Below, one piece after another: positions 15,696-50,403 of a stretch of DNA of 51,342 bases. The position numbers and the translations under genes are program-made. Location: the NCBI GenBank assembly GCA_963575745.1, contig CAUYUJ010000037.1:620001-671342 (forward strand), written 5' to 3'. The notes beneath the pieces are model-generated. The model did not search any database. It saw nothing but the letters and a program-made list of their open reading frames with translations, and was not told the origin of the DNA. Every line of letters starts with the position of its first letter. Positions within the stretch are counted from its first letter, which is position 1. The stretch comes from Prorocentrum cordatum (taxonomy: Eukaryota).

Positions 15696-15779
15696 ATGGA
15701 AGGGATGTTCGAGTGCAACATCTGCCTGGAGGAGGCCGCGAAGCCGATGGTTACGCGCTGTGGGCACCTCTTCTGCTGG
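15696..15779 (+). CDS. RING-HC E3 ubiquitin ligase (RNF5/RNF185/RMA1-like), exon A
   Basis: Encodes MEGMFECNICLEEAAKPMVTRCGHLFCW and ends at the GC donor TGG|GCGCCT. The true start of the gene is uncertain. Confidence 0.8.
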
Positions 15780-16419
15780 GCGCCTCCCGGGGGTGTGGAG
15801 CGCCAGCTGATGAGAGCCGGTCGCCTCTCGACTCCCAGCGCTGCTCATTCAGGTGCTTGTTCTCCTCCTGGTCTTGTATCTTCCCTGGCTCCTGCTTATG
15901 ATCCTGCTTATTCCCCGTGTTATCATGATTTTTCTCCTTATCATACAGGTGCTTGTTCTTCTGCTTACTCTCCTTATTCTCCGATTGGCTCTTCGCCCCG
16001 AACCCGAATTCACAGTGTAGTCTTGTCTCTCCGCTCTGTCGCTCTCGCCCCGAGCCCGCCCGCCCCGTCACGCTCCTTCCTCGCAGCCCGCTCCCTCCTC
16101 CTGCTCCTCCGCGCATGCGGCTGACAGTGATAGCACACGAGGTTTTGTCAGTGCCAGCCAGAGGTCAGGCAAGCCCAGGACCAGGATGAATCGCTCCAGA
16201 GCGCTCCAGAACACTCTCAGAGCGCTTCGGAACGCCCTGAAACGGCCGCGGGGCCCGATACATCCTCCAGAGCCGCCAGATCTCAGGGATCCCCGATTTA
16301 TCCCGATCCAAGTTTGTCTCGACCCTGGCTTCGTCTTGGGAGGAGGAGCACGGCGAGCTGGAAGGGCGCGCCACAGCGCACAGACGCTCGCCCTGCGGGT
16401 GGGGGGGGGTGCGGTGCAG

Positions 16420-25680: not shown

Positions 25681-26863
25681 CGTTCTGTGTTACTTGCTCT
25701 TGGCGCAGATGCCTCATCACGAATTAGAGCGAGGAGGGCCGCGGTTGGAGAGCTCTCGAATGCGATTACGCACCTGACCTCCTGATCGTGTACAATGGCT
25801 TGCATGCCTTCCCAGGGGACACGTGACGCGCCATCATAGAGACGAATGCATTGAGCCTTCCTACGGTGCATCACCGCAGCGACGGCATTGAATGGGCACG
25901 AGTCCCTCTTCGGACCACCCCTCGGTGCCAGAGAATGACGTATGAAGGCAGTCATTGACACTTCGATGGCAAAATGCACTGCCCAGGAGATCGCTGCGTA
26001 GGGGACCGTAAGGCGGGGTTGGACATTTTAGTCAATCCTATCGTGGTTTGGAATGGACAGGCGATCGGGAAAGCAGCATGGCGCACTGGTGGAACTTTGC
26101 CCGCGCCGCGCGCAACCTGAAATTCACCGGCGTGGCGGCGCAAAGCGCCGCGCAATGATGCGCCTGCACTCTTGAACGCAAGGCCCGACGATCTACTGGC
26201 GGTCATGCGCAAGTCAACTACCCCGCACGCCGTCTCGACCGATTCCCGCTGCAAGCTCAAACTGACGGGGGGGGGGGGGGGGCGCGCGCCAAATTGCATT
26301 TCACATAATGTCGCATACGCACATGCAAATTAAGATATTGACTGGCTTTACACAGTACTTTGCCCCGTTCTTTATTTGCGGGGCGGGGAAGAGCTATATA
26401 TTTCAGAATGTTTTACGCCGCGCCGCTTTGGGAAGGGCCAATCCGCCTTCATCAAATTACACCAGCAATCAAACTGCATTCCGATGTCTTCGCATGATTT
26501 GGCAAAAAACGAACGTTATCTTGCAAACGACCCGTGGGCAAGCAAGTCGCGCGCCCAATCGGTGCGAATCAGAATATATACATATATACATATATATATA
26601 TACAGCACCTCGCAGAGACGCTGGTCGGACTGCAACGAGTAAGGGCTCGGCTTGAAACCAAGTCCCCGGGCTCATTTTCCTGAACTGCTGCTGGTTGATG
26701 TCATCGTTGTCAGATTGACACTCGGCTGCAATCACAATGGCCACGATGCCGATCACCTACTCCTGGCCCAGCGGTCTGAATTGAGCAGCATCCGCGCACG
26801 CACTATTCACACCGCCAAGTATCCGGGGCACGGCTTTCCAAAGTTCTAGACGTTTCGCGTATC

Positions 26864-29800
26864 CCCACGGTTCTCTCAAAGCTTGCCAACGACCTGGGTC
26901 TCTGTGTCAGCATGTTTGACAGGATGTTTCACGCCCTCCGCGGCCAAGACACGGCGGTGGTCCACCTGTCGATTTGCTACCGCATGCATCCGCAGCTCCT
27001 CGCCTTTACGAACGCAGCCTACTACGGCAAGGGTATGGCGAGCGGCATCTTGAACCCGCTCAGAGACAGGCCCATAGTTGAAGGCATCCCATGGAGAGAC
27101 ATCTCACCCTGGGAACCTAGGCGCCCGACGGAACTCGCCAAGCTCACCAGTTCCAACGAGGCCGACCTCAGCGCGACCCTTGGGCAGTTGGATCCTCCGC
27201 AGAACGGCGACAGGCACCGCTTCCCTCTTGTCGACACACCCTCGTGGGAGGTTACGTCCGGCCTCCAGCCAGGCTACGCCAACCTCCCCGAGGCAGCGCA
27301 GGCTGTGGACATGGCGCGGGCACTCCTCCCCGAGCTTGAAAGAGGCACCACCGTCCGAATCGTCGTTGGCTACCAGCTCCAAACGGCCATCCCAATGGAC
27401 GGCTGGCCACAAGGCCCGCGCCACCTCAGCGGCGCCCTGCGAAACTCGAAGAGTGGCAACAAAGGGAAATCCGGCAAGGGAAAAGGCAGTGGCGGCCATA
27501 GCGGGCGAGATATCCCCGGCCCTGGAACAGACTCCCGAGAGCACGAGGTCGACACTCACCGCTGGGAAACCGTCTTTCGGGAGGGTCGTAACGCCCACGC
27601 AGCTATCGGCACAGCCTTCCCTGGTCTCAGACAGAGTGCAGGCAAGCACATGAAAAGTGGGGCCCTCAAGCTCACTACCATCGACTCCAGCCAGGGCGGG
27701 GAGGCAGACATCGTGATTGTGCTGACCACCAGGAGCAACGGGATGCACAACTGGGGCTTTGTCGATGACGCCAAGCGGCTGAACGTGGCGAACACGAGGG
27801 CCAAGCGGAACATCATGATGTTGGGAGACGGGCGCATGTTCGCCAACGCCACTTGGTCCCAGCTACGTGCGCTTTCCGAATGCGGGCGCTTGGCCCGCCG
27901 ATGGGCCAGGTTCGGGGGCGACGGACCCGCCGGCCACAGGCAATCCCTGGTCATAGACGATAGGTTTGACCCACTGCCCGACCTCGCCACCTGGGCGCCC
28001 TCCCCCGTTGCCTGGAGTTGCGACGCGAAGGGAGAGGATGGGCGCAAGGAGCTCGATGCGGCCAAGAGAAAAGCCCGTGGCGCTCAGGCGAACAGCTTCG
28101 CCGATCGCTTCAACGCCCCACTGGCCGATGACTTCGACTGGGACTCCCTGGGCAAGTTCATCTCTGACGGCCTAAACGAGATCCTCTCGACGCCTGCCTT
28201 CCATGTGCTCATCTACCTGGTGGCGGGGCTCCACCCGCGTGAATTCTCGCTGTCCGAGACACCGCGGCAGCCTGGCAGACTCGACCAGAAGGCGTGGTCG
28301 CACCTGGGCTTCCTGTTCGACATGTCCCTGGGTTTAGACGCGACCAATCTGGTCTACAACATGCTCTGGGCAGCCATAGTGTGGTCACTCGGCCTTGGCA
28401 CTCCCTGGGAGGACGCAGGCCACGCAGTGTGCAACGACTCCCTCCCCCCGGCGCCGCACGTCAGGGGCCGACGTGCAACGGCGGGCGGCGACAGTGCACT
28501 CCCAAGGGACTTGTCCGACAGGTTCCCCAGGCGTGGAGTGCAACAACCAAGGACTGCTGCAGGCACAGGAAGCACCCTGGGATGGTTGGCCTGCAGGAGA
28601 TCTTAGGTAGTGCTTCCGTCGATCCAACCAGGGGCCGACTCCGGGAGGAGATCAAGGACACAGACGGCCTCCCCATGGAGTCTTGCAAGACCCGCTCGCT
28701 CCTGGTGGTCATGATGTTAATGCTCCGCGAGCCGCGCGTGTTCTTGTGGCCGTTCCCACACGCCGAACAGGCTGGGGACGTGATTGCAGCCATCCTGGGT
28801 TTCTGTGTCCCGTGGCAGGAAGCGCATCGAGGGTTCCGGCAGGACTTCGCGAGCACCTAGGGCCTCACGCTGGAGGACCTGGCCGATCTCCACGGGCGCA
28901 TCGAGGCAATCCTGCCACACATCTCCAAGCTCGTAGCGGTGGCACACCACCACCCCGACGCACAGGCAGCTGGCTGCCCGCAGACCTGGAGTGAGTTGGA
29001 CAGGCATGACTTCCAGCTGAAGGCCCCGCTGCTCGTCCTCGAGAAGATCGTCCCAGCCGCCTCACTGACCCCCCTGGGCACGCACCACTGCCCCCTGTGC
29101 GCGCTTCACATCGCGCTCGCGGGCTCAGACGCCTCCCTGGGTGACGACGACCGGGGTGCTGGGCTCGCCTACATCGGCGGCGGATTCGCCCTTTCCAACA
29201 CCGATCTGAACGCCCCCATGCCGCCCGCCCCCGCCCCAGGTACCAAGCAGGACCCCCCGCACATCCTCGACGACAGGCTGTTGGCTGAGCAGAAGCATGG
29301 CAGGTTCAAGTGCGACAGATGCGGCAAGGATCAGCTACGCTCCACAGACGGTACATGGATCTCGGACGATACTCGCCTGATGGTAGCGCAGAACCGGCCC
29401 CAGGCCTACCTCGACGGTACAAACATGGGATGGCACTGCGAGATCTGCTGGATTCGACACCTGGAGGACAAGGGCATCCCAGCACCAACCGGTGCAACAG
29501 TCGCGGATAAGGTCAAGGAGTACGAACACTGGAGGACCGGTGGCGCAAGTGACAAGAAGGCGAGTGCCCTCCCCTCCCTGGGTCATCTCCCACTTGGCTT
29601 TGGATGCAGCCCCCAATCGGACACGAGGACACTGGCGGATCTCATCATGACGCCGGCGGGCATGCACAACCCAAAGCGCGCCAACACCACTATTCCCATC
29701 CTACGGGTCAGGGATGAGCGATTCGGCCTTAAAGCTGCAGAGAACAAGGTCTACTCTGCTCGGTGCGACACATGCCCCCCAGGGGCACCGCTCCTAGTCT

Positions 29801-31878
29801 GGAAAACCGGAGCACCTCCCCTGGGATGCTTCATATGGAAGCCAAAGGAAGGAGTGGGTGTGCCCGAGCAAGCAGGGCTGCCTCCCATTGAGCGGCGAGC
29901 CATAGCCTGGTGGGAGCGCGACTGGAATGCCACGTGGTGCTGCCGGCGGCGCCTGGTCCCCATCTGGAACATCGGGCCCGCGACTCTGGACCACATCATT
30001 GGGAGAGACTACAGGGCACTGCACCCAGCCGAGGCCCCTGTCCTGCCGACGCTCAAAAGCCGGGTCGCAGCGGAGGCCCCGGTGGACATACTCCGCACCC
30101 TTCCCTGGATGGGCGCCGACGCCAAGGCCGCAGATCGCTTCGCCAAGACAGGAGCGGCAAACCTCCCTGGGTCCAGCGCCTTGGGAACAGCCGCCCCCGT
30201 GGCCGAGCAGGCCCCCAGGACTCTCCCGCAACTCATGGAGCTCCTGCCGGAGCTGCCAGTCCCCCAGGGGCCGCTCCTGGACTGCAGGGAGGTCACCAAC
30301 CCCACGCTCAGGTCAGACGACCCCAGGAGTAGGTCTGGCAGCGGAAACGTGGTCGTTCAGCAGCTTCTCGTGACCCACCTCCGGGACTTCCACCCTGGAC
30401 TGGACTACCTTTGGCGGCAGTTCTGCCACGGCCATTGCGATGATAACATCCCAGAGCCTAAAAACGAATAAGCCTCGTGGCCAGGCGGTCGGTTGACGAT
30501 TTTTCTCAGGGCGGCGTACGGCGACGACATCCCGGGGGATTGCTCCCCGCGCAACCAGCCCTGGGAAGGCAAGCGGCTGGCCGCCGCGCGAGTCGTCTCC
30601 CACCTCACCAACGGCGAGAAACACAAAGAGGCCTGGGAGCGGCACGTCTCGACCCTCGCCCCGGCGAGTGGCTTCAACCCAGTCAGACACGAGATGGGCA
30701 CGCTGACGAGCTTCCTGCTCAGCCTCAGTGCCGATGCCCTGGCCACGACAACCATCACCTCCCTGGCGGAGTCGCATGTGCAGGCCATGAGCGAGAACAG
30801 GCCCGGCAACGAGGCAGGGCGCCCTCCGACACAGTGGCTGGGCAAGCCCAAAGTTCCAGCAAGAACCGTGGGCGACACCTCCACAGCGGTTGGTGCAGAC
30901 TACTCCCTGGGTTCGAAAGACGCCGGGATGCGCGCTGGAGACCCGAAGGTGCCTGGCCCAGCTGCCAAAGAGGAGGACGACGAAGATGAAATTCCTGCCA
31001 CTGAGCGAGCGGATTCAGCCGACTTTGGAAGCCCCCAAGAGGCTCCTCCCCCTGATGACTGTCCGGACACGGACACGGGTGCGGAAGATGATGGCCCTGG
31101 CGCCAAGCCGCCACAGCAAAGCCCAACGGCAGAGAGCATGGAACCCAGCTCCGACGACGACCCTTTGAACGCCTGGGGTGGTGCAGCCACCACTGAGCAG
31201 AACGCCAGTGGTTCCAGGGGGCCAGGTCGAGACGAAGCCGCGCGAGACAGAGGCGCAGCACAGGACCACCGCCCCGCACTACGCAATCCGCAAGCACCAG
31301 ACCGCAGGCTGGCCTACTCTGGCGCCACGGAACGACGCGTTCTCAACCAGCTGACCGACGCCCACGGAGGCCCCATGTACAAGGCTTGGTTGGGCTCCGT
31401 GGACTTGGAGCGCCGCGGAGAGACGCCCGCCAAGTGCATCACCAGACACCAAGTTGACTTGGGTGGAGTATTCTGTGTCCTTTGGACTGCATACACAAAA
31501 GGCATCCGGATCCCTGGGTCCAAGGATCCCAAGTCAGACCCGAAGCTGCACACGGACGCGAACATCAACAAGTTCTTGGATGACTGGAAGCATTGCGGTT
31601 ACGATGCCTACGCGATGGACAAGAAGTTTAACTTCTGCATCGACTGGGCAACGGTGCGGGCCGAATACATGCGCCACACCAGGACAGACGGCACGGGCAA
31701 GGGCAACCACCAACAGAACAGCTGGCACGACCGGGCAAGGAGCTCCTGGGACGCCTGGGACAACTGGCAGAGTGGCTGGAGCTCCGGCTGGCACGACGAC
31801 CAGTGGCAGTCAGGAGGCAAGCGTGGCGGCGGCAGGCCAGATGACCGCGGCGAGAAGAGGCAGCGGTGGGGCGACTGA
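26864..31878 (+). pseudogene. 5'-truncated, disrupted ~1,670-codon ORF: C-terminal half of an Upf1/DNA2-like SF1 helicase, Cys-rich domains and a Trp/Gly-rich tail
   Basis: Helicase motifs: PTVLSK..GLCVSMFDR, CYRMHP, YANLPEA, VGYQLQ, TIDSSQGGEADIVI and RLNVANTRAK. One frameshift falls near 28450-28590. ORFs 28294-28860, 28939-30471 and 30493-31878 share one frame, broken only by TAG at 28858 and TAA at 30469. No introns are needed. Confidence 0.85.
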
Positions 31879-31964
31879 GCCCCCTCCCCCCCCTTCCCCA
31901 AGCGTTTCATGTGCAGCGTCTGTTTTCCACACTCTGTGCAGCCTTCTGTTGCCTCATGGGTTAC

Positions 31965-32564
31965 GTTTCATATACTCGGGCGGCGGCCTGCCGCCGCCCT
32001 CCCTGGTACACGCACTTCCTGCCTTTGGACCCAAGTGTGTTTACCAGCAGTACCGTCTGCATGGCATCACGGGGGCGCGTTGCGTGCAGGCCATAGTTGG
32101 CCCCGGCCCTGCTGTAGTTGTTTTCACCTCTGGCCCTGTTGGACTTCTTCCCCCGGCCTCGCGGCTCTGTGACCGTCGCCGATGGCGTTGCCTCGTCTCA
32201 GTCCAGAACCGCACTCACCATGCTCCCTGGGTTCTCAAAGGTACTGCGGCTTCAGCTGCTCTTCAGTTTCATATACACACGTGGCGGCCTTCCGCCGCCC
32301 TCCCTGGTACACGCACTTCCTGCCTTTGGACCCAAGTGTGTTTACCAGCAATACCATCTGCATGACAGCGCTGGGGCGTGTTGCGTGCAGGCCATAGTTG
32401 GCCCTTGGCCCCGCTGTAGTTGTTTTCACCTCTGGCCCACGGGATCCGTCCGCCGGCCTCGTGGTTCTGTGACCGACGCAAAGATGGCTTCGCCTCGTCA
32501 CTGTCCAGTACCGCACTCTTGCTCCCTGGGTTTCTCCATGGACAGCGGCCTTCAGCTGCTCTTC
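31965..32564 (+). repeat. ~301-bp tandem duplication in the 3' UTR of the helicase element
   Basis: GTTTCATATAC..CCCTGGTACACGCACTTCCTGCCTTTGGACCCAAGTGTGTTTACCAGCA..TTCAGCTGCTCTTC starts at 31965 and again at 32266. Confidence 0.9.
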
Positions 32565-35381
32565 TCTGCGCTCTCCTGGGTGCGACTGTGGGCGGGTGGC
32601 TTCCCGACAGCGGGTCTTCAACGTAGACCAGACGGTGCACTTCTGGTGCCGTTGAGGTACCCCTCCGGTGACAATGACTTGGGGTGCCCACCCGTAGGAC
32701 TTTGCCGCGTTCGGACGCAGGGACCAGTTGCGCACCGACCTGCGCGCACCGGCCTCAGCGTGGCAGCGGGTGGTCAGAAGACTGATCCCACATCTGTGCA
32801 GTGGTTCGCTGTTCCTTTGCTGGCCGCCAGTTTCGGTTGCCTGGACTGGCATCATCCCACCGTCGCGCCCCCGCTCCACCCGGACGAGCGGTCTTCCCTC
32901 GGCTTCTTCGTGACCACTGACTGTTGCTTGGGCTGCAGCTGGTAAGAGGCAGCACCGCTCCTCGAGCGCCCTCGTCTACTCCACTCAGGTACGCCAGGGT
33001 ACCTTGGTTAGGCGGCTCCGGTTGTGCTGGTCACGTTAGTTGCTTCCTGGTACGCGTCCCTGTTCTAATCTGGTTGGCGTCGCTTGCGATTTGTGGCCGT
33101 TAGTGGAGTGGGACTGTTGTCCCTTCCGCATGGCGTCACATCATGTCACTTGATGGTCGCTTGCGTTCGCACCTATTCGCGGCTGTCTCCTGGGCCTGGC
33201 GTGCTTGGTTCGGTTCGACACCACGAACTCCACGCCTTTGGGCTGTGTGGGTGCGCACTCTGGAGCTGCGACGGTTCGCTGGCGCTGTCAGAGCGAACCT
33301 TTCGTACGGGATGCCGACTGACGATTGCTTTTGTGTCTTTCGGTTGGTGCTTGTGCGTGGCAGGTCCCCTGGATCCCCTCGCACTTCTTTCCCTCCGAGG
33401 TTGGGGACTTCCTCCTGTTCAGTTAGTGTCTCAGACCGCTTGGTTCTGTTGCCTCTGACACGGTGGGGGTCTTGCATCGCGCCACTTTGGCAGCGTAGTT
33501 ACTTCTCCCTGGGCGCTGGGTTCCCATCAGACTCCCTGGGCAGCAGCACCCTTGCACCTGCCGCCCGGCGCCGGCCGCGGTACGCGCGCGCCCCTGGCCA
33601 ATTTATAGCGGCCGCAGCCCGACCGTTACCCGCCGCCCGCCCGCGGCTGTATAAAAAAAGTATCCCCACCAGTCGGGCTTTAGCCGAGTTCTGCGACAGG
33701 GTGCCATGATAAGTGAGGCCGCTCTCTGTGCCGCCGTTCCTTCTCTTACTGGCGCTGTGTGCCTCGTCTGACGTCCGCTGCGTCGCCTTCGCTCCCTCCC
33801 CCCCCTCTTGCCCCCGCTTGTGATTCGGCTGGAGCTTGGCGCCGCAAGGGCGACTTCTCCCTCCGTTCCGCCTGGTCTCCGCGCCTCTGCGTCCCCACCT
33901 GCTGGGATGCCTGTGCCGGTCACCTCTAATGAGGGTAATTTTGTCCCAGGCACGTGCATTCGCCATTGCGGCTTACGCGCTTCTTTGGCAAATTATCTAC
34001 GGCATGTGCCCCAGCCGTTTATCCCGCTTCTTGACCCTTGTCTTGGAGCCGCCGACCAAAAAAGTATCCCCACCAGTTCGCTCCCGCTCCCTGGCCGTCG
34101 CCTTGGAGCCGCTAACCAAAAAAATGTATCCCCACCAGTGCTCTTGCCGCCTGACCGTCGTCTCGCGGCCGCGACCGAAAAAGTATCCCCACCAGTGCCG
34201 TTTGCAGTCAGCTCAGCCAGCCTCCCTTCAGCCCGCGGCCCCGCCGGCGGTAGGTTCTGAGTGTGGCTTAGCCGCTGCTCGTTTAGGCCTGCGCGCTGCT
34301 AGTTTGACAGGCCCGTGGCCCGGACCTCTCAGCTCGGCGACTGCGACTCCGCGTCCGCCCGCGACCAAAAAAGTATCCCCACCAGCCCATTCAGAAACGA
34401 TGTTTAGGCGAGTTGAGAGGTGATCAGGGAAGTGCGGGAGCAAAGAGGTGGACGGCCGAACCGCGTGAAGAAGAGAGGGGGCGAAGGAGAAAATTTGATG
34501 GATGGATGAGGGAGTAGGGCGAAGGAGGATGAATAGGATGAGGAGGAGGAGGAGGAGGAGGAGGAGGAGGAGGAGGAGGAGGAGGAGGAGGAGGAGGAGG
34601 AGGAGGAGGAGGAGGAGGGGGAGGAGGAGGGAGGAGGAGGAGGAGGAGGAGGAGGAGGAGGAGGGGGAGGAGGAGGATGAGAAGGGATAGGAGGAGGAAC
34701 GAGGAGGAAGAAAGCAAGCAAAAGGGCCAGAGTTCTCTTGGATGTTTCTCGGAGCCTCTCGGGGTATCTCTTGGCCGTCTTGGGGCTCCCTTGGCGGTCG
34801 TGGGGGGCTCTTCGGCGTCTTGGGTGCCTCGGGGGGGCCTCTTGGGGCCGCTTGGGATCCTTTTGGGGGCCTCCTGGGGGCCTTTTGGGGGCCTCTTGGG
34901 GCCATCTTGGGACCTCGACGACGACGACCGACGCCGAGGCCCCTTGAGATCCTCGAGGCCAGAATTTCCGCATGTGTTTTCGCTTTCCCAGGCCAATATC
35001 CAAAACAATAAATCACACAATTAAGTTTGAGTAACGAAATAAGTCCCGTAAGTTCCATATGTTCATATTGGTGATAAGAGCCGCATGTCATTATTCAACA
35101 TATCGCTACTATGATGTAAGGTTTTCGATTTGCCCATCGATTTTATGAGTTGAAAGGGGTGGGCGGTATCATGTTGACATTTGATATTGCAAGCACACTG
35201 TGCACATACAACTCAACTTGAGGATTGCTCAAGTCCCTATGATGTTGCTGATGCCCAGCTTCTCTGGGCAACCCTCTCAGGAGGGACCTCCCCGGCGATC
35301 GGCCGGACGGGGGACACCGGTGAGACAGCGTCGAAGCGCCAGGAGGGATGATGCGGGGCCGAAAGAGCTTGGGCGATCCAG

Positions 35382-35546: not shown

Positions 35547-36725
35547 CTCTCTCACACACAGACATTGTGCACACACAGGCAAATTCTGACACACGTTTGC
35601 ACTCGAAGGGTTTCTCGTCGCGCATCTTGGTTGCCTCATTCATCCTGCCGATGAGCCACCCTACAACCAACATATACACATAACGGGGGACCGGGTCCTG
35701 GGGGCCCAGGCCGAGAGCTCGACCACAAATGTGTGGACTGGGCTGCCTGGAGCCTTGCCGGCGCGCCAGAGGCCCTCTGAGATCGCCCGCCCGAAGACGG
35801 CCCTGGATTGCCTGAAAACACGGTTCGAGACCGCCAGAACGGCCCATGACGGCTCCAGATTGTTGAGAATTGGCCATCGCCTGTCCAAGAGGTCTCCAAG
35901 GCACCCCAAGAGGCCTCCACGAAGCTTCCCAAGAGGTAAAGGTTTAGACGGATTTGGGTTTTCTTGTTTTTTGTCGGTTTCCCAAAGCTCCAAGGCGGCC
36001 CGAGACGCCTCCAAGGACGCCCCAATATTGCCCAAGAGGCTCCCAAGAGAGCCCCAGGACGCTCCGAGAGAGTTCCACGACGGCCCCGAGAGGGCTCCAA
36101 GACGGCCCAAGAGGCCTCCAAGACGGCCCAAGAGACCCCCGAGACTACTCCAGAGAGGGTCCAGACGGGAGCGGACATCTTGAGCCCTCGGCCTCGAGCG
36201 GCCCCACGGAAGCCCAGAGAGGCCCCTAAGAAACCCCAAGAGGCCCGAAGAGGCTTCCAAGAGGCCCCCAACCCCCAAGAGGGCCGAAGAGGCCTCCAAG
36301 AGGCCCCCACCAGGCCTCCAGGAGGCCCCCACGAGGCCTCCACGAGGCCCCAAAGAGCCAAATTCATTCATATGTCAAAAGTTTTGGAGGATTTGGGCGT
36401 TCTCGCCTGTGCGGCTTTCCGACGTTCCGAGGCGGCCCAAGAGGCTTCCAAGATCGCCCCACCATTGCCCAAGAGGCCCCCAAGAGCGCCCCAGCTCACC
36501 TCAAGAGTTCTCCAAGGCGGCCGCAGAGGCCCGCAAGACGGCAGTCCCAGAGACCTCCAGGACGTCCCGATAGACCTCGACGAGCGCTCCCCAGACGGGA
36601 CCAAGAGCTAAAATGAATTGATATTCCTGACGCTTTTGAACGACGCCCCCAGGCGACCCGAGAGAACTCCAAGACGCTCAAAGAAGCCTCCATGAGGCCT
36701 CTCAAGAGGGCCCAAAGAGGCAAAA

Positions 36726-36744
36726 GTCATTGTTCTGGCTCAAG
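36726..36744 (+). other. Degenerate dinoflagellate spliced-leader relic
   Basis: GTCATTGTTCTGGCTCAAG resembles the 3' part of DinoSL (GCCATTTTGGCTCAAG). It sits at the boundary between repeat and unique DNA, about 115 bp upstream of the ATG of an intronless gene. Confidence 0.55.
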
Positions 36745-36858
36745 CAAGGCTGCCTCCAAGCTCTTGTGGCCTCTTGCATCCGAGCCCGCACTGCGGGCTC
36801 GGATGCACGAAGCTGCGGGCCCCGCAGCGAACCCGTCAGCTCCGGCCGACCGGACCCC

Positions 36859-38430
36859 ATGCTGCGCAGCCCAGCGATGCAGCTGGCCGCCAAGGGCAAG
36901 AGAGACGGGGAAAGCTCACGCCCGGTGGGCCGTTCCAGCAGATTGGGCAGCTTGGGGTCGCATCCGTCACCTAGCCGCAGGGCTTGCTCCAAGACGCGGC
37001 TGTCGATGCTGGCTGCAGATGCCAGCGGCGTGAGCCTGGCTGGAGGCGGACAGCGCCACTGCATCATGCGTGGTGCTGTCGCCGACCCTTTAAAGGCTGT
37101 GCCAGACGCCCAAGGGTGCGCGACCCCCAGCACAGCGGCTGGCTCACCCGCGTCCTCTCGTTCGGGCTCGATGCCTGCGAGCAGCCGCCCAGTCTCGAGG
37201 CTGCCTGAAGCAGGGAGCTGCGGAGCGCCAGTGGCGGTGGTCGACATGATCCGCTCCAGGCGTGGTGGTCGCAGGCCCCCGTCTGGGGCGCCAGCGCGCG
37301 AGGCACCGGAGCTTGCGCGGAGCGGTGCGGGCAGCGGCCCCGCTTCCTGGGGATCGTCGCGCACCGCGGGCTCGGCGGCGGCGGCGGTGCAGAGCCACTG
37401 CAGGGACGTCAGGGAAGTCTGCCGCCTTGCCAAGACCCTGCAGCTGCCGGTGGCAGAGGTTGAGCGGGCATGCGCCCTCTTCCGGGACCATGCTCAACCC
37501 CTCGCCCCGGGTGCCGAGATGCTCAGAGACGGGCGCCTTGGCCACGAGCAGTTTGCCAGGCTCGTGCGGAGCCACCTGACTCGTGACAGCGGCGGGGTGG
37601 CGGAGTGGTCCATTAACAGGGTAATGCATGCCCTCAAGAGCGTGCGCGAATCCGATGGTGTCAACCAGAATCTTTGCCTGAGCTTCGAAGAGTTTGTTGT
37701 GTGCATGCACATCCTGTCTCTCGATCGTGCGGCGGAGGCGAAAGAGGCGGAGCGGAGCCACGGCAGGGACGTCGCGGAGGTTTGCCGCCTTGCCAAGACC
37801 ATGCAGTTGCTGGTGGCAGAGGCGCGGCGGCTGTACACCCTCTTCGGGGACTACGCCGAGCCCCTCGCCCCAGGGGCCAGGATGGTCAGGGACGGGCGCC
37901 TTACCCAGGAGCAGTTTGCCAGGCTCGTGCGGAGCCAGCTTACGTGGGACAGCGCCGTCTCAGCAGAGCAGCACGTTGAGAGCATAATGTCTTCAGTCAG
38001 GAAGGTGTGTGAGGCCGCTGGTGTCAAGCGGGGTCGCGGTCTGAGCTTCCATGAGTTTTTGGAGTGCACGCGCATCCTGTCTTTCGACGGTTGCATCCTA
38101 TCTGGGGAGGAGCGCGGACTGCGCAGGATGGCCCAGAAGTACGACCTAGGATTCGTCGAGATCGACAGGTACAAGAAGGTGTTTGACGAGCTAGACGCAG
38201 AACGCAGCGGCAGAATTGGCCGCCAGGCATTGGATAGCTTTTTCAACAAGTTTGGCATCTTCGCGGAGGACATACGCCACGCCGACACGCGCAAACACGA
38301 CATTTGGCTCCTAGCGGATCCAGACCTCAAGGGTAGCATCGACTTTGAAGCGTTCCTGATCTTCAACTTGAAGTACGTTAGCCGAGGAGCCGAAGGCCTC
38401 TATCAGTACTTTGGGGCATGCGCGGCCTGA
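36859..38430 (+). CDS. Intronless EF-hand calcium-binding protein (523 aa from the first ATG) with an internal 121-aa duplication
   Basis: EF-hand-like loops FDELDAERSGRIGRQAL and ADPDLKGSIDFEAFL. The block RDVxEVCRLAKTxQLxVAE..DGRLxxEQFARLVRS occurs twice, at about 37391 and 37754. Confidence 0.8.
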   Translation: MLRSPAMQLAAKGKRDGESSRPVGRSSRLGSLGSHPSPSRRACSKTRLSMLAADASGVSLAGGGQRHCIMRGAVADPLKAVPDAQGCATPSTAAGSPASSRSGSMPASSRPVSRLPEAGSCGAPVAVVDMIRSRRGGRRPPSGAPAREAPELARSGAGSGPASWGSSRTAGSAAAAVQSHCRDVREVCRLAKTLQLPVAEVERACALFRDHAQPLAPGAEMLRDGRLGHEQFARLVRSHLTRDSGGVAEWSINRVMHALKSVRESDGVNQNLCLSFEEFVVCMHILSLDRAAEAKEAERSHGRDVAEVCRLAKTMQLLVAEARRLYTLFGDYAEPLAPGARMVRDGRLTQEQFARLVRSQLTWDSAVSAEQHVESIMSSVRKVCEAAGVKRGRGLSFHEFLECTRILSFDGCILSGEERGLRRMAQKYDLGFVEIDRYKKVFDELDAERSGRIGRQALDSFFNKFGIFAEDIRHADTRKHDIWLLADPDLKGSIDFEAFLIFNLKYVSRGAEGLYQYFGACAA

Positions 38431-40752: not shown

Positions 40753-41618
40753 GGAGGTTGGGGGGTGAGATCGAAGTGGAACGGAGAGCCCCCCTACCGG
40801 GAAATCGATTTCGGTTTCGTGTTCGTGCGTGCCGTGCGGGCGAGGCGAAGCTGCGTGGGCGGGCGAGAGAACGTCTCCTGTGGCTGAGGCGCGGCCGGAC
40901 CAAATGTCTCCCTTCCGGGCGGCCGTGGGCCCGCGGTGTCCCGCCGGTGTCCCGCTGGTGTCCCGTGTGGCTGAGGCGCGGCCGGACCAAATGACTCCCT
41001 TCCAGGCGGCCGGGGGCCCGCGGTGTCCCGCTGGTGTCCCGCTGGTGTCCCGTGTGGCTGAGGCGCGGCCGGACGAAATGATTCCCTTCCGCGCGGCCGG
41101 GGGCCCGCGGTGTCCCGCCGGTGTCCCGTCGGTGTCCCGTCGGTTTCCCGATAATGATGATGTTGATGATGATAATGATTGCTATGTTGTTGCTGATGAT
41201 AATGACGATGGTGGTGTCCCAGTGATTATGATGATGGTGTTGATGATGATGATGATATGACGATGATGATGATGTGTCTGCCCGTTGTTGTTGATGATGA
41301 TGTTGGTAATGATGATGCTGATGATTATGGTATCCCGATGATGATGATTTTGACGGTGGTGCTGATGATGGTGTTGGTGATGGTGTACCTATGATGATAT
41401 TGATGATGATGTTGGTGATGATGGTGCTGCTGATGATGATGGTGTCCCGATGATGTTGATGATGCTGTTGATGATGATGATGATGATGATAATGAGCTGA
41501 TGTTGATGATGGTGTCCCGATGATGTTGATGATGTTGACGATGAAAATGGTGGTGACCATGGAGGTGTCCCGATGATGTTGATGATGCTGATGGTGATGA
41601 TGACGATGGTTGTGTCCC

Positions 41619-41685
<67 letters not shown>

Positions 41686-42037
41686 GCATGATGATGACGG
41701 CGTTGATGATGCTGATGACGATGATGATGATGAAATTGTCCCGATGACGATGAAAATGATGGTGTTGATGATGATGATGACGTTGAATGTTAGATCGATT
41801 GTTATATCGGTAGTGAGATCGATAGTGAGACCGAATGTGAGATCGATTGTGAGATCGATAATCAGATCAATTGTGAGACCGAGCGAATGAGATAGATCGA
41901 GTGAGATCGATTGTGATATCGACCGAGTGAGATCGATCGAGCGAGACCGATAGTGAGATGGATAGTGAGACCGATCGAGTGAGACGCTGCATCCTCCCCC
42001 CCCCGAACCTCCTTATCACCCGAAGGGTGGTCTTATA
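40753..42037 (+). mobile_element. Non-autonomous element with (sub)terminal inverted repeats and a 3' hairpin (Helentron/DINE-like architecture)
   Basis: GGAGGTTGGGGGG at 40753 pairs with CCCCCCGAACCTCC ending at 42012. CACCC-GAA-GGGTG follows at 42017-42029. Flanks are TA-rich. The interior holds three 87-bp repeats (40879, 40966, 41053), (GAT)n and GAGATCGAT repeats. Confidence 0.5.
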
Positions 42038-42385: not shown

Positions 42386-44965
42386 CAAGAGGTTGCAAGG
42401 AGCTTCAGGAGCTGCTCCCGCCTGGTGCCCCAGGTCTCCCACATGTCTGCAGGCCTCGCAGAGGCCTCCAGGAGAGCTCCCCAGAGCTCACACACTTGGT
42501 TTCCCCTAGTTTTTTCCACGTCTCTCCCCTTGCAGCCTGTTCTGCACCCCCACGCTGCGCGGCAGCCCCAGAGGACGCCCAGACCGTCCCGGTTCGGCCC
42601 CAGACGCTCCCAACCTTGTCCCAGATGTCTCCGCATGGGAGGATCGGCGCGCCCCAGTAGGGTCACAGAGAGGCCAGGGACGCTCCAAGATCCCTGCGAC
42701 GCCGACGATCACCCCAAGACAGCCCCCCGAGCGACTTCGTCGACGCGGCATGCTCCCAAGAGGCCTCCTCGAAGGGCTCTCTGAGGTCGTATTCCTTGTT
42801 TTTTCCATTGGTTTTTCCACGCTTTCACTCATCCAGCGTGTTCTGCATCCCCACTCTGCACGGCAGCCCAAGAGGACGCCCAGACCGATGCGGTTCGGCC
42901 CCCCGGGGCCCCCAACCGCGATCCAAGACGGCCCCGCATGGGAGGACCAGCGCCCCCAACTAGGCTCCACGAGCCGCCAGAGTCGCTTCCAGGCCTGCGC
43001 GACGCCGACGATCGCCCCACGACAGCTTTCCAGGCCACCTCGCCAGCAAAAGAGGCTTCCTAGAGGCTTCCCACAAGGGCCCCCAGAGGCTCAACTCCTA
43101 GTTTCCCCCATGTTTTTTTTTCCCCCGGTTTCTGGCCACCCAGATTGTTGTGTTTCTCGACGGTGCAAGCTCGTCCTAGAGGTCCCCAAGACTGCCCCGC
43201 GACGGCTCCAGAGGCTCCCAACCGTGCCCCATGACGGCACCAGAGTGCACCCTGACGGCTGAAGCGGCGGCAACGAGGAACCCCGAACACCCCAACACGG
43301 CCGATTGGGGCCACAAGAGAGGCCTGGGGGCCTTTGCGGTCGCCAGGGGCGGTTTCGACACTGTTGATTGCGTCTCGGCGAACCGCGACCGAGCCAAAGA
43401 CCTGTCACAGAGCTCAAAGGACGGGGAGGAGAAGCAGGACGAGGACAAGGAGGAGGGGAACGATGAGGACGAGGAGGGGGAGGAGGAAGAGGAGGAGGAG
43501 GAGGAGGAGGAGGACGACGAGGAGGAGGAGGAGGAGGAGAAAGAAAGAGGAGGAGGAGGAGGAGGAGGATTTGGAGTAGGAGGAGAAAGAAAGAGGAGGA
43601 GGAGGATGTGGAGGAGGAGGAGGAGGAGGAGGCGGAGGAGGTGGAGGAGGTTGAGGAGGAGGTTGAGGAGGAGGAGGAGGATGAGAAGCAGGAGGAGGAG
43701 CAGGAGCAGGATGAACAGCTGGAGGAGGACGAGCAGTAAGAGGAGACGGCGGGGAGAAGGCGGAGGAGGAAACGGAGGAGGAGGATGAATAGGCAGGGGG
43801 GCGGGGGGGGGGTTGCCTCCTCCTCTGCGTTTTCGTAATCCTCCTCTCCTCCTCCTCCTCCTCCTCCTCCTCCCTCCTCCTCCGCCTCCTCCTCCCTTCT
43901 CCCCTCCTCCCTGATCCTCCTGCACCTCCTGCTGCTGCTGCTGCTTGCTCCTCTGTTTCTCCTCCTCCTCTCTCCTCTCCTGCTACTCTCTCCTCTCCTC
44001 TCCACCCCTGCCCTCCCCCATCACCCTCCCTCCTCCTCCTCCTCCTCTCTCCTCCTCCTCCTCCTCCTCCTCTCCTCCTCCTGCTCCCCCTCCTGCTCTT
44101 GCTCCTCCTCCTGCTCCTACTCCTGCACCTCCTCCTTTGATGTTGCTCCTCATCCCCTGCCCCCCCTCCTCCTCCTCCTCCCCCTCCTGCTCCTCCTCCT
44201 CCTCCTGCTCTTCCTGCTCCTGGGCGTGGGGTCCTGGGGCCGCACTCTCGGGGCCGAGGAGGGGTCCAGGGATCGTGGAGGATTCTAAGGGCCGAAGATG
44301 GGTCCACAGGCGTCCACGCGGGTCCCCAGAGCCAGCGGTCCAATGCCCAGGGTCCAGAATCAGTCAAGGGCGGACGAGAAGGAGGAAGACGACGAGGAGG
44401 AGGAGGAGGAGGAGGAGGAGGAGGAGGAGGAGAATGAGGAGGAGGAGGAGGAGGAGGAGGAGGAGGAAGAGGCCAGGGAGGAGACGAAGGCGAACGAGGA
44501 CGAAGGCGAGCACGAAGACAAAGGGCGAGGAGGAGGCCGACAACGATGACGAGCAGGGGGGGAGTCCGGGCAGTTCTTTGTTGGGCTGCGGGTTTCGTCC
44601 CCCGCTCCTTGGGGTGGATTTACCGCTCTGGTTCGGTTTGTACCGGTTTGATTCGGCCCCATTCGGTCCACAAGCGATATTGGTTCGGTTCGGTTCGGGT
44701 CTCTACCGCGACCATTCCGGTTCGGTTCGATTCGTCTTGGGGGGTGCGCTGGTTCGCGCCCGTTCGATTCAGCCTGGCTCAGTCCAGGCAGTTCTGGAAC
44801 CTTCCTGCAACGAAACACTGCGACGGAGTTACGCCAGGAAGGAGGCACCACAGTACGAGATTTCCGAGGCTCCAGGAGGGTCCGCCGTCAGGACCCTCTG
44901 GAACGAGATCCGCTGTCGATGGCACTGCTTGCCGTGGTATCCGTTGGTGCCATGGTGCCACGACT

Positions 44966-48100: not shown

Positions 48101-48816
48101 GTATATATATACACACACACGCATGCGTTCATGCATACATGTGTATAGATACATGCATGCATGCAACCACATGTATATATATATATATATACATTTATAT
48201 AGTGTGCCACATGCATTTGCAAAATGCATATAACCATACATTCATGCATGCATATACATGTGTAGAGTGTAGACATCTTGGCTAAATAAACACATACTTC
48301 GTTACGTACGTACTCGCAGGCGTGCATCAATGCATGCATGCATACGGACAGACATGCATCCATGCATGTATACATACATTCATACAGACACGCGGTCCAT
48401 AAGAAGCTCGTCTAGAGCGATGCAAGAAGAACACATCATTGATTGTCCACCGTTTTCGTTTACGGATTTGCAGCTTCTCGCTATTTCTGCTTCCCGACTG
48501 CTCAAGACGTCCCAACAGGTTCCCAAGACCGCCCCTGGGAGCTCCAAGAGGCTGCCACGAGGGTGCCTCCACTGCCTACGAGGGCCCAAGGACGGGTCGG
48601 GAGCCACCCAAGACGGCAGAAGGGGGCCCGAAAAGATACCCCAGGACGGGGCAAGGAGCCCCCAATATGCATCAAGACCGCGGCCCAAAATGATTTCAAG
48701 ACGCTCAAGTGGCGTCTTTCGAGGCCGAAAGATATGCAAAGTGTTCCCCGAGAGCGCCGAATGAAGGACAAACCATTGATCTGCCTTCGGCTTTTGAAGA
48801 ATTTTTGACGCTTCGC

Positions 48817-49428
48817 ATATCCCCACAAGCTTGTGCACTTGTTGCGTCGGCCTATGCGCCGTCGTAACCAATTATCTTGCCCTGTGCCCCTGCCGAGACC
48901 ATCCCGCTTCTTGGATGTGTCCTTGAAGCCGACAATAAAAAAAAGTATCCCCACCAGCGCCCCTGCGAGTGAGGCCTCCATCTGTTCCCCCCTTTCTCCT
49001 GCCGCCGCTTGCCCTTGCGCCCGCTGTGTCTCTCCTGTTCCTTGGCCTCCTCCTCGTTTCATGGACGGTGCGGCCTCAGCCACTCCGTGCCGCCACAGCG
49101 CGGCGTGCTCCACGCCCTTGCGCGCTGTTCGGTACGGTCAGAGCTTGGCGCCACTTGTGCGACTGCTCCTTCCGTCCGTTTTCAGTTTGGTGTTTGCGTT
49201 CCCCTGTTTCGGGCCGCCAGCGTCCCAATGAGGGTCATTTTGTCCCTGGCACGTGCACCCGCTGCCGCGGCCTATGCGCCCCAGCAGCTAATTATTTCGC
49301 CCTGTGCCCCAGCCAAGTCCGTCCCGCTTCTTGGATCTGTCCTTGGAGCCGCCAATCAAAAAAAGTATCCCCACCAGTTCCGCCTGACCGTCGTCTCGCG
49401 GCCGCGACCGAAAAAGTATCCCCACCAA
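48817..49428 (+). mobile_element. Array 2: three stacked A-tailed inserts separated by RTATCCCCAC(CAR) repeats
   Basis: Motif copies at 48817-48826, 48945-48957, 49365-49377 and 49416-49428. A-tracts are A8, A7 and A5. Inserts are about 118, 407 and 38 bp. Confidence 0.85.
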
Positions 49429-50403
49429 CCCATCCAGAATTGATTGCCAGTTTTCTTGGGGCCTCTTTGGAGGCTATCTTGAGCAATGCTCGGCTAGAGG
49501 CTGTCGGAGGCCATCTTGAGCCATGCTCGGCTATCTTGGGCCACCGTGAGGCTGCCTTGAGGCCTCTTGGAGGTCTGTCGGAGGCTATCTTGAGCCACGC
49601 TTGGCTATCTTAAGCCAGTTTGAAGGCCATCTTGGGCTATCTAGGGTTCTCTTGGAGCCATTTTGAGCCAAAAAGGGCGGGGTGGAGGGTCTTTGGGAAA
49701 GGCTGGGAGGCCTCTTGGGGCCATCTTGGGCCCCATGTCTCAAAAAGAGGAGGTGCCTTAATTCGGATCCCCCCCGCCGGAGGCTCTCAAACGGCGTCTT
49801 GGGGCCGTCTTGGAGCGCTCTTGGGCGCCTCTTGGGCGATCTTGGGGCCGTCTTCGGCCTTCTTGGGCCCCTCTTGGGGCCCTTTTGGGCCATCATGGTG
49901 CCATCTTGAGGCTTCCAAAGCCCATCGGAAGCGGAAAGGCGAGAATGCCAAAAACATTGATTTTCCCTTGGGTTTGGAGTGTTTTGGGATCTTGGAATTC
50001 GCCGTGGAGGGCTCGAAGGGCACTTGGATCCGTCTTGGGCTGTCTTGGGGCCTCTTGGGGGTATGTCGGAGGCTATATTGACCCATCTTGAAGTAACATG
50101 GGCCATCTTGGAGGCCATCTTGCGCCTTTGAACGCCTCTTGGAGCAATCTTGGGCCATCTTGGACGCTCTAACGCCTCGCGGCGCGCCCCGTCCAGGCCC
50201 AGGGGAGGGAACGGGGGGGAGGGGCTTCAGTGGAAGAGAAAAGAAACAAAACGCGTTATACCACCTAAGCCCAGAGGGCTGGTGGGATTTGTGCGTTTCA
50301 CTTTTCTGCTTCCCGTCCGTCCAAGACGGTCCAACAGGCTCCCAAGACCACCCCACGACTGCCCACGAGGGCCAAGAGACGGGCGACGGTCAACTCGCAT
50401 AGT

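What the first reader, a model, noticed from the sequence alone, without database searches (positions are those of the whole stretch)
26831..34400. CRISPR-like array built by sequence-specific stacking of A-tailed, 5'-truncated inserts
Seen: six copies of GTATCCCCAC(CAG) separate five inserts of about 6.8 kb, 391, 49, 44 and 177 bp. All are in the same orientation and end in A5-7. The four short inserts end in a related GCCGCNACC-like sequence. Removing the inserts restores CGGCTTT..GACGTTTCGCGTATCCCCACCAGCCCATTCAGAA, which matches the flanks of array 2. Known: target-primed reverse transcription leaves 3' A-tails, variable 5' truncation and TSDs, and site-specific non-LTR clades (R2, CRE/SLACS, NeSL) reuse a fixed target. 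Inference: a site-specific retroelement family I do not recognise regenerates its target with each 13-bp TSD, so the locus records successive insertions.
Basis: partly seen in the sequence, partly recalled or inferred. Interest (0 to 1): 0.92.

Follow-up and report, generated by a model that had tools for sequence, protein, structure and literature searches.

The report
Stacked site-specific retroposon inserts, dinoflagellate
A dinoflagellate genome holds two places where A-tailed, front-truncated copies of one repeat family have piled up at exactly the same 13-base site, each copy duplicating the site so that it can be hit again.

Summary
Array 1 (26859-34385) has six copies of GTATCCCCAC(CAG) separating five same-strand inserts of 6791, 391, 49, 44 and 177 bp. 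Array 2 (48817-49428) has four copies and three inserts. All eight inserts end in A5-A8.

Uninterrupted target sites exist. 11 of 12 metagenome contigs found with the right-hand junction carry ..ATTCTTGACGCTTCGC|GTATCCCCACCAG|CCCATCCAGAAACGAT.. with a single 13-mer and no insert.

The inserts are diverged members of one superfamily. They share a roughly 110-nt 3' domain and are about 70-87% alike, yet the 13-mers between them are identical. This points to independent insertions with a 13-bp target-site duplication and rules out tandem duplication of one module.

The 6.8-kb insert is a 5'-truncated, decayed copy of a high-copy element. Its single giant ORF (a 2945-aa relative was found) encodes an Upf1-like helicase. 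No known-family reverse transcriptase or endonuclease was found.

The host is probably Prorocentrum cordatum or a close relative. The target unit lies at the 3' end of a spliced-leader-bearing transcript.

[quoted passage not shown] "CRISPR-like" is only an analogy. Interest is moderate to high. It is a new variant of a known kind.

The parts
26842..26858 (+). Left arm of the target unit of array 1 (AGTTCTAGACGTTTCGC). It corresponds to ATTCTTGACGCTTCGC of the empty sites.
26859..26868 (+). First copy of the duplicated site in array 1. Only the 10-mer GTATCCCCAC is present. This is the 5' junction of insert I1.
26869..33659 (+). Insert I1, 6791 bp, ending in A7. It is a 5'-truncated copy of a giant-ORF element. 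It starts inside the Upf1-like helicase and lacks roughly the first 790 aa compared with the relative P0011. Coding runs to 31878, with at least one frame change near 28468-28495 and an in-frame stop at 30469-30471. The 3' UTR spans 31879-33659.
   Evidence: Pfam AAA_12 at 4.3e-25. tblastn shows P0011 786-1322 and 1333-2130 collinear with 26834-28468 and 28495-30720. Thousands of 85-99% alike contigs in four runs.
27641..27829 (+). Best-matching stretch of helicase domain 2 (AAA_12, motifs V-VI) inside I1.
   Evidence: residues 288-350 of the frame starting at 26780. One search shows the closest solved relatives are Upf1/NAM7, Sen1 and SMUBP-2.
31965..32564 (+). 300-bp tandem duplication (85% alike) in the 3' UTR of I1. 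Its copy number differs in a contig of run X4.
33660..33672 (+). 13-mer GTATCCCCACCAG (target-site duplication copy).
33673..34063 (+). Insert I2, 391 bp, ending in A6. It covers the end of an ORF (stop codons near its 5' end) plus a 3' UTR. It belongs to the same tail family as J1 and J2.
34064..34076 (+). 13-mer copy.
34077..34125 (+). Insert I3, 49 bp, ending in A7 followed by T.
34126..34138 (+). 13-mer copy.
34139..34182 (+). Insert I4, 44 bp, ending in A5. Its last 36 nt are identical to J3 of array 2.
34183..34195 (+). 13-mer copy.
34196..34372 (+). Insert I5, 177 bp, ending in A6.
34373..34385 (+). Last 13-mer copy of array 1, continuous with the right arm of the unit.
34386..34450 (+). 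Right arm of the target unit (CCCATTCAGAAACGAT..) and its type-a continuation (..AGGCGAGTTGAGAGGTGATCAGGGAAG..), followed by an (AGG)n microsatellite.
   Evidence: This bin has about ten-fold higher contig depth than I1.
48805..48816 (+). Left arm of the target unit of array 2.
48817..48829 (+). First copy in array 2, ATATCCCCACAAG. It is either a 13-mer with two changes or a 10-mer plus junction bases.
48830..48944 (+). Insert J1, 115 bp, ending in A8.
48945..48957 (+). 13-mer copy.
48958..49364 (+). Insert J2, 407 bp, ending in A7. Its tail is 80% alike to I2 over the last 60 nt.
49365..49377 (+). 13-mer copy.
49378..49415 (+). Insert J3, 38 bp, ending in A5. It comes from the same source as I4 but has a different 5' truncation point.
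49416..49450 (+). Last copy in array 2 (GTATCCCCACCAA) and the right arm of the unit, running into a CTTGAGCC-type satellite.

Best explanation
Both arrays are stacks of independent, site-specific, RNA-mediated insertions. The mechanism is most likely target-primed reverse transcription (TPRT).

The target is a 13-bp site, GTATCCCCACCAG, inside a dispersed, conserved unit of about 46 bp (ATTCTTGACGCTTCGC|GTATCCCCACCAG|CCCATCCAGAAACGAT).

Inferred steps:
1. The bottom strand is nicked at the left edge of the 13-mer, and its 3' end primes a copy of an A-tailed RNA.
2. Copying often stops early, which gives the 5' truncation.
3. The top strand is cut 13 nt further right.
4. After fill-in the 13-mer stands on both sides of the insert, so the site is regenerated and can be hit again.

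Shown here: the layout, the empty sites, one shared 3' domain across all inserts, and different truncation points for copies from the same source.

Inferred here: the nick positions, the RNA intermediate, and the enzymes.

The inserted family is a high-copy dinoflagellate repeat, with the host probably Prorocentrum cordatum or a close relative. Its long form carries one giant ORF containing an Upf1-like RNA/DNA helicase and CxxC zinc modules. No known reverse transcriptase or nuclease domain was found. The polymerase and nuclease therefore most likely come in trans from a partner element that recognises the shared 3' domain.
For: Layout: 10 site copies and 8 inserts, all on the + strand, ending in A5-A8.

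Empty sites: 11 of 12 metagenome loci found with the right junction are uninterrupted units with one 13-mer. L008 and L009 are the same locus, so these are 10 distinct loci.

Independent insertions rather than tandem duplication: insert tails are only about 70-87% alike in pairwise comparison. In contrast, all 5 full 13-mers of array 1 and both internal ones of array 2 are identical.

Same source, different truncation: I4 (44 bp) and J3 (38 bp) are 36 of 36 identical at the 3' end.

Shared 3' domain: it is found in all 8 inserts, including the 6.8-kb one.

I1 is a true multi-copy repeat. 4557, 887, 552 and 10777 contigs from four runs were laid on 26300-35000 at 85-100% likeness, while the unique left flank has depth 0.

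Independent junction: one contig of run X1 joins an I4-type tail directly to the A-run, the 13-mer and the right arm (joint 34177>34367).

5' truncation of I1: it starts at about residue 790 of the collinear 2945-aa relative P0011.

Junction bias: 5 of 6 internal 5' junctions begin with T. This would fit an untemplated A added to the cDNA end (inference).
Against: No RT, AP-endonuclease or restriction-like endonuclease domain was found:
- in I1;
- in P0011, even at E up to 5;
- in any of the 191 stop-to-stop ORFs of at least 130 aa in the window;
- among PDB sequence matches of P0011, which are helicase cores only.

The A-runs are short (5-8) and could be templated rather than true poly(A) tails.

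All 11 empty sites come from metagenomes of unnamed organisms and are paralogous to the two window sites, not allelic. None of those 11 is filled.

Read support for this exact locus was not obtainable.

No consensus RNA structure was found in the tails.
Confidence: 0.7

Rival explanations
1. The inserted sequences are not a transposon family of their own. They are retrocopies of mRNAs from a multi-copy host gene family (a ZNFX1/Upf1-like helicase with a conserved 3' UTR). A separate site-specific LINE, not seen here, places them at this site.
For: The giant ORF has only helicase and zinc-module features and no RT or EN. A 300-aa piece is annotated as an ordinary protein product in Prorocentrum cordatum. 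Retroposition of host mRNAs is reported as rampant in dinoflagellates, with the responsible element unknown (PMC6050394, passages).
Against: All 8 inserts at two sites belong to this one superfamily. No unrelated mRNA is among them. The family is very abundant and diverse. An intact intron-free 8.8-kb ORF on a 12.6-kb contig looks like a mobile unit.
Confidence: 0.17
2. The arrays arose by tandem duplication or unequal crossing-over of one [tail - A-run - 13-mer] module, followed by divergence. Repeated insertion played no part.
For: Tandem Repeats Finder reports a 60-bp period at 34042-34196 with 2.6 copies and 78% matches.
Against: The modules differ by 13-30% in their tails, yet the 13-mers between them show 0 changes. 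Insert lengths range from 38 bp to 6.8 kb. I4 and J3 are identical across two distant arrays whose flanks differ at 10 of 53 positions. Empty sites exist.
Confidence: 0.04
3. Insertion happens at the DNA level and is driven by the element's own helicase-containing protein through an unknown copy-in mechanism that is anchored at the 3' end. The A-run is an encoded terminus.
For: No RT was found. A-runs are short and nearly constant at 5-8. About 1800 aa of the giant ORF are unassigned.
Against: 5' truncation down to 38-49 bp with a fixed 3' end is the signature of abortive reverse transcription. No HUH/Rep or transposase family match was found. No terminal repeats are visible. Helitron features are absent (no TSD expected, AT target, Pif1-type helicase).
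Confidence: 0.07
4. Assembly artefact: repeats collapsed or chained by the assembler.
For: The region is repeat-rich, and this exact locus could not be checked against reads.
Against: Two separate arrays have different content. An independent run holds a tail/A-run/13-mer/flank junction. The junctions are exact to the base.
Confidence: 0.02

Closest known systems
Site-specific non-LTR retrotransposons with restriction-like endonuclease (R2, R4/Dong, NeSL-1, CRE/SLACS/CZAR, Utopia)
   Same: One fixed target inside a multi-copy sequence, one orientation, 3'-anchored copies with 5' truncation, and a constant short target duplication. The features of these clades are recalled here, not tested.
   Different: No RT or endonuclease was found in the longest copy or in its 2945-aa relative. 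The coding content is an Upf1-like helicase. The target is not an rRNA, snRNA, tRNA or spliced-leader gene by Rfam or ARAGORN. Stacking of up to five copies at one site is prominent here.
LINE/SINE partnership through a shared 3' tail (stringent-type LINEs and their SINEs; recalled)
   Same: Diverged family members keep a common 3' domain of about 110 nt in front of the A-run. This is what a partner RT would recognise.
   Different: The dependent partner here would be a roughly 10-kb protein-coding element rather than a short Pol III SINE. The LINE partner has not been seen.
Zepp (Chlorella) and telomeric HeT-A/TART-type head-to-tail stacks of poly(A) retroposons (recalled)
   Same: Same-orientation piles of 5'-truncated, A-tailed copies at a preferred place.
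   Different: Those stacks insert into earlier copies or onto chromosome ends. Here every copy is separated by an exact 13-bp target duplication of an unrelated unit.
Dinoflagellate retrogenes and tandem gene arrays with genomic mini-poly(A) sites
   Same: Genomic poly(A) sites in dinoflagellates are 3-5 A followed by G or C, and were suggested to be 'a signal and/or a byproduct of duplication'. The spliced-leader acceptor is an AG (PMC2488372, abstract and passages). Each insert here ends in A5-8 followed by G, and each 13-mer ends in CAG.
   Different: Those arrays are of host genes with spacers of 85-982 bp. No fixed target or TSD has been described for them in the passages read.
CRISPR arrays
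   Same: Short identical repeats alternating with variable inserts.
   Different: The genome is eukaryotic. The repeat is a target-site duplication, the inserts are all copies of one repeat family, and nothing points to an immune function.

Membership tests
Non-LTR (LINE) retrotransposon, autonomous | Encodes a reverse transcriptase (RVT_1-type) | tested here: not met
   Pfam finds none in I1, in P0011 at E up to 5, or in any of 191 window ORFs.
Non-LTR (LINE) retrotransposon, autonomous | Encodes an AP-type or restriction-like endonuclease | tested here: not met
   No Pfam match. A motif scan found no CCHC, and only one loose PD..(D/E)xK string in the N-terminus of P0011. About 1800 aa remain unassigned, and structure prediction failed.
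TPRT-type retroposon (autonomous or not) | 3' A-tail, variable 5' truncation, flanking target-site duplication | tested here: met
   8 of 8 inserts end in A5-8. Lengths run from 38 bp to 6791 bp with a common 3' end. 13-bp repeats flank the inserts.
Site-specific retroposon | The same target is used at independent loci, and empty copies of the target exist | tested here: met
   Two arrays in the window have flanks 81% alike. 11 empty units were found in metagenome contigs. One further filled junction was found in run X1.
SL-gene-specific clades (CRE/SLACS/CZAR, NeSL) | The target is a spliced-leader RNA gene | tested here: not met
   The unit does not contain the dinoflagellate spliced-leader sequence. 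The leader's 3' part occurs only at the 5' end of L011. There is no Rfam match at the unit. Some unit subfamilies are followed by AG|GNGAGT, which remains unexplained.
Helitron | Rep (HUH) plus Pif1-type helicase, no TSD, insertion between A and T | tested here: not met
   The helicase is Upf1/NAM7-like. No Helitron_like_N or PIF1 match was found. A 13-bp TSD is present.
Dinoflagellate retrogene | Relic spliced leader at the 5' end of the genomic copy | not testable with these tools
   All 8 inserts are 5'-truncated. No full-length genomic copy could be fetched.
CRISPR array | Prokaryotic repeat-spacer array with a leader and cas genes | tested here: not met
   The context is eukaryotic. The repeat is a duplicated target that also occurs singly at empty sites.

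The most novel reading that the evidence does not exclude
The 13-bp duplication may work as a minimal dinoflagellate intergenic cassette.

- Its first G completes the AAAAG-type poly(A)-site motif behind each insert.
- Its pyrimidine-rich body ending in CAG gives a spliced-leader acceptor exactly in front of the next insert.
- The target unit sits at the 3' end of host transcripts, in the same orientation as the inserts.

If this is right, a promoter-less element with no recognisable RT would be transcribed by read-through. Trans-splicing and polyadenylation would cut it out as a capped, tailed RNA, and it would then be copied back into the same site. On that reading, the same machinery would be a concrete model for how dinoflagellate tandem arrays with mini-poly(A) junctions arise. 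The unassigned 1800 aa of the giant protein might hold the missing nuclease or polymerase.
Probability: 0.15. Interest if true: 0.85.

Novelty: new variant of a known kind. Interest (0 to 1): 0.6.

Why it matters
Dinoflagellate genomes are thought to have grown largely by retroposition. A review I read in passages states that it is unknown which element does the reverse transcription and insertion (PMC6050394).

This locus gives base-exact junctions, a fixed 13-bp target, empty sites and a defined 3' recognition domain. That turns the question into a searchable one: find the enzyme that nicks this unit and the RT that binds this tail.

A site that accepts insert after insert without being destroyed is also a natural candidate landing pad for transgenes in organisms that are hard to transform.

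A high-copy mobile family built around an Upf1-like helicase instead of an RT would be unusual among retroposons.

Tried and rejected
- Whole-genome search: no genome is held.
- Earlier notes of this scan: nothing found.
- Rfam at gathering score on the window, Rfam at E up to 1 on 10 metagenome loci, and ARAGORN: nothing at the unit. The only matches were microRNA-like chance hits elsewhere.
- Viral contigs:
  - The right-junction pattern gave 4 chance hits with unrelated flanks.
  - The A-run plus 13-mer pattern gave 15 chance hits.
  - P0011 gave none.
- Prokaryote genome contigs: 0 hits for the left junction.
- Homologue searches for the helicase ORF, for ORF2 and for P0011 residues 1330-2400. 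These gave only distant helicases, one 300-aa P. cordatum fragment, and P0011 itself.
- ESM Atlas for ORF2: best score 0.79, no lead.
- AlphaFold2 of ORF2 with a 3-row alignment: mean pLDDT 30.3, unusable, so no fold search was made.
- Consensus RNA fold of five tails: -3.7 kcal/mol, no convincing helix.
- DNA hairpin at the nick: z-scores -0.09 and -0.99, not significant.
- RNA evidence: no RNA holder was listed among the sequencing runs.
- Binding or complex prediction: not attempted.
- The idea that the unit is a spliced-leader RNA gene or a relic leader was considered. It was set aside because only the last 5 nt of its reverse complement resemble the leader's end.
- The idea that both arrays are "closed" by an imprecise last insertion at the left was weakened. 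The first copy of array 2 can be read as a full 13-mer with two substitutions.
- Other A-runs of at least 6 in the window show no similar junctions.
- Literature searches (listings only) returned no paper describing a site-specific retroposon or a helicase-encoding retroposon in dinoflagellates.
Full report
**1. The observation**

GTATCCCCAC occurs far more often than chance. With up to one mismatch there are 11 matches, against a shuffle mean of 2.66 and a maximum of 7.

Reading the sequence and tabulating it gives two arrays.

Array 1:
- GTATCCCCAC at 26859, followed by GGT
- insert I1 (26869-33659, 6791 bp, A7)
- GTATCCCCACCAG
- I2 (391 bp, A6)
- 13-mer
- I3 (49 bp, A7 then T)
- 13-mer
- I4 (44 bp, A5)
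- 13-mer
- I5 (177 bp, A6)
- 13-mer, continuous with CCCATTCAGAA

Array 2:
- ATATCCCCACAAG at 48817
- J1 (115 bp, A8)
- 13-mer
- J2 (407 bp, A7)
- 13-mer
- J3 (38 bp, A5)
- GTATCCCCACCAA, continuous with CCCATCCAGAA

All inserts lie on the + strand. With the inserts removed, the two sites align at 43 of 53 positions and not beyond, apart from satellite DNA. Only these two copies of the site exist in the window.

**2. Empty sites and the target unit**

No genome is held for this window. I scanned the metagenome contigs with the right-hand junction, GTATCCCCACCARCCCATYCAGAA. This pattern matches both empty sites and the last copy of any filled array.

Of 12 loci, one (L016) is a chance match. 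The other eleven (L005-L015; L008 and L009 are the same locus) all read ..ATTCTTGACGCTTCGC|GTATCCCCACCAG|CCCATCCAGAAACGAT.. with a single 13-mer and no A-run or insert. So 11 of 11 true hits are empty and 0 of 11 are filled. In the window, 2 of 2 sites are filled.

The conserved core is about 46 bp.
- To the left the sequence is locus-specific in most loci. A subgroup shares about 55 more bases.
- To the right there are three subfamilies:
  - (a) ..CCCAGGNGAGTTGAGGTGATCAGGGAAG.. then (GGA)n. Array 1 is of this type.
  - (b) ..TACCAGGTGAGTTGG..
  - (c) a CTTGAGCC-type satellite. Array 2 is of this type.

Rfam and ARAGORN find no known RNA gene at the unit.

These empty sites are paralogous to the window's sites and come from unnamed organisms. 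They show that the uninterrupted target exists. They do not show an empty allele of these two loci.

**3. Independent insertions, not tandem duplication**

All eight inserts can be aligned at their 3' ends over roughly 110 nt..CGGCYTAYGCGC..GCNAATTTAT..GYCCC..TCCCGC..GCCGC..ACC-An. Over the last 60 nt they are only about 70-87% alike in pairs. The exception is I4 and J3, which are 36 of 36 identical but start at different points, 44 versus 38 bp.

The 13-mers between them are identical: five full copies in array 1 and two internal ones in array 2. Modules that had diverged by a fifth or more after a tandem duplication could not keep 65 consecutive repeat positions unchanged. The 60-bp period reported by Tandem Repeats Finder at 34042-34196 is therefore a by-product of stacked short inserts.

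The two arrays differ in number, length and subfamily of inserts. The A-run plus motif is thus not part of one fixed larger repeat.

**4. What the inserts are**

I1 begins inside domain 2 of an SF1 helicase (Pfam AAA_12, 4.3e-25).

A search of 1.84 billion representative proteins found 5122 hits at E up to 0.001, most of them generic helicases. It also found a 2945-aa protein, P0011, from a 12.6-kb metagenome contig. P0011 is collinear with I1: residues 786-1322 match 26834-28468, and residues 1333-2130 match 28495-30720.

I1 therefore lacks about the first 790 residues. It has at least one frame change and an in-frame stop at 30469-30471, so it is a truncated and decayed copy. The coding part ends at 31878 and is followed by a 1.8-kb 3' UTR.

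P0011 has these parts:
- an N-terminal C2H2-like finger
- the helicase (AAA_11/AAA_12)
- about 1800 further residues with paired CxxC motifs

No other Pfam family matches, even at E up to 5. Its only matches among solved structures are the helicase cores of Upf1/NAM7, a 5'-3' RNA helicase-like protein, Sen1, SMUBP-2 and DNA2.

None of the 191 stop-to-stop ORFs of at least 130 aa in the window has an RT or endonuclease domain. The other matches are a RING finger, EF-hands and a weak synaptobrevin-like hit.

ORF2 of I1 is 95% identical to a 300-aa "unnamed protein product, partial [Prorocentrum cordatum]". The window's G+C of about 0.5-0.7 fits that species, which its genome paper describes as having the highest G+C of those compared (PMC10666404, passages). 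I take the host to be this species or a close relative.

**5. Abundance and independent junctions**

Contigs of four public runs were laid on 26300-35000. The counts were 4557, 887, 552 and 10777 contigs, spread over likeness classes from under 90% to over 99%. They cover all of I1 and the short inserts, so the family is high-copy and diverse.

The unique left flank 26300-26590 has depth 0 in all four runs. None of them holds this locus, and the junctions of this locus remain unchecked.

The bin 34157-34447 (I4 end, I5, last 13-mer, right arm) has about ten times the depth of I1. This fits a unit that is much more numerous than the long element.

One X1 contig joins an I4-type tail directly to the A-run, 13-mer and right arm (joint 34177>34367). 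That is an independent filled site, or the counterpart of array 2, in another data set.

**6. Mechanism**

The combination of fixed 3' end, A-run, 5' truncation to as little as 38 bp, one orientation and a constant 13-bp duplication is what target-primed reverse transcription with a 13-nt staggered cut produces. This follows from established knowledge of non-LTR elements.

From the orientation I infer two cuts:
- a bottom-strand nick between TTCGC and GTATCC
- a top-strand cut after CCAG

Five of six internal 5' junctions start with T. That would fit an untemplated A on the cDNA end. This is inference.

Which copy of the duplicated site is reused is unresolved. There is a weak hint for the right-hand copy. 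The I4/J3 type is identical between arrays and so probably young. It lies last in array 2, last in the X1 contig, and second to last in array 1.

Because neither RT nor nuclease is seen in the element, I think they act in trans and recognise the shared 3' domain. This has not been shown.

**7. A lead on the target**

L011, when oriented like the unit, begins with TTTTGGCTCAAG. These are the last 12 bases of the dinoflagellate spliced leader. The 21-base leader string I used as a search term is found in 28 papers. This 12-mer occurs nowhere else in the loci or the window.

After the leader comes a 382-aa ORF, a stop and 97 nt. The contig then ends inside the unit. The unit therefore lies at the 3' end of a leader-bearing transcript, in the same orientation as the inserts. 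This is one case only.

Bachvaroff and Place (PMC2488372, abstract and passages) report three things:
- Genomic poly(A) sites in dinoflagellates are mini-poly(A) runs of 3-5 A followed by G or C.
- These runs are possibly "a byproduct of duplication".
- The leader acceptor is simply an AG.

Each insert here ends in A5-8 followed by the G of the 13-mer, and the 13-mer is pyrimidine-rich and ends in CAG. This suggests, without showing, that the duplicated site rebuilds a poly(A) site behind each copy and a trans-splice acceptor in front of each copy.

**8. Comparison and novelty**

Functionally this works like the site-specific non-LTR clades. It fails the membership tests for an autonomous LINE, because no RT or endonuclease was found. 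It is not a Helitron and not a CRISPR array.

Four literature searches (listings) and passages of two reviews (PMC11453091; PMC6050394) gave no description of such an element in dinoflagellates. I did not see the supplementary repeat tables of the genome paper.

I rate it a new variant of a known kind, with interest 0.6. The helicase-only coding content and the dinoflagellate setting are what make it worth following.

Noticed in passing
L011 (stored strand reversed; oriented coordinates 1-1329): The contig starts with the last 12 nt of the dinoflagellate spliced leader. It carries a 382-aa ORF with a sulfotransferase-like HIGKAGGTSF string (my reading, no Pfam hit) and ends inside the target unit 97 nt after the stop. 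G+C is 0.47, lower than the window.
   Followed up: partly
L014, oriented about 899-970: An empty unit is followed by a partial second copy (..CAGAAAC GCTTCGCGTATCCCCGCCAGCCC GTATCCC..) without any insert. This is a local duplication of the site itself.
   Followed up: no
L012, oriented about 170-230: A second, degenerate unit (..TTCGCTCCCAGCATCCCATCCAGAACCGATGTCCAGG..) lies about 130 bp upstream of the intact one.
   Followed up: no
window 34386-34420; L005, L006, L007, L012, L015: Right of the unit, subfamilies a and b carry AG|GNGAGTTG, with N being T, C, A or G. This resembles a splice donor, including the GC and GA donors reported for dinoflagellates (PMC10666404 methods passages). Subfamily c lacks it.
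   Followed up: partly
window 34814-34911, 36213-36516, 45500-47800, 49797-49912: 11-bp GGCCTCTTGGG-type satellites occur on both strands, partly organised in 211-bp and 403-bp higher-order repeats (45908-47519, 3.9 copies, 89% matches). They have very high depth in all four runs (bin 34739-35000).
   Followed up: partly
window 49440-49650; L008-L010, L013: The satellite right of array 2 (GGCTATCTTGAGCCATGCTC..) read on the minus strand ends each unit in GGCTCAAG, like the 3' end of the spliced leader. This may be a relic-leader array or chance.
   Followed up: no
window 31965-32564: A 300-bp tandem duplication (85% alike) lies in the 3' UTR of I1. A contig of run X4 'goes back 300' there, so the copy number varies among family members.
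   Followed up: partly
window 36640-38427 (+): A 596-aa open frame with an EF-hand pair at its C-terminus and a 363-bp internal tandem repeat (37383-38087).
   Followed up: no
window 15516-16121 (+): An open frame with the start of a RING finger (zf-RING_UBOX, 6e-07). It is probably one exon of a host gene.
   Followed up: no
window 34523-34708, 43425-44472, 41150-41780: Long trinucleotide arrays: (AGG)n/(GGA)n/(TCC)n and (GAT)n.
   Followed up: no
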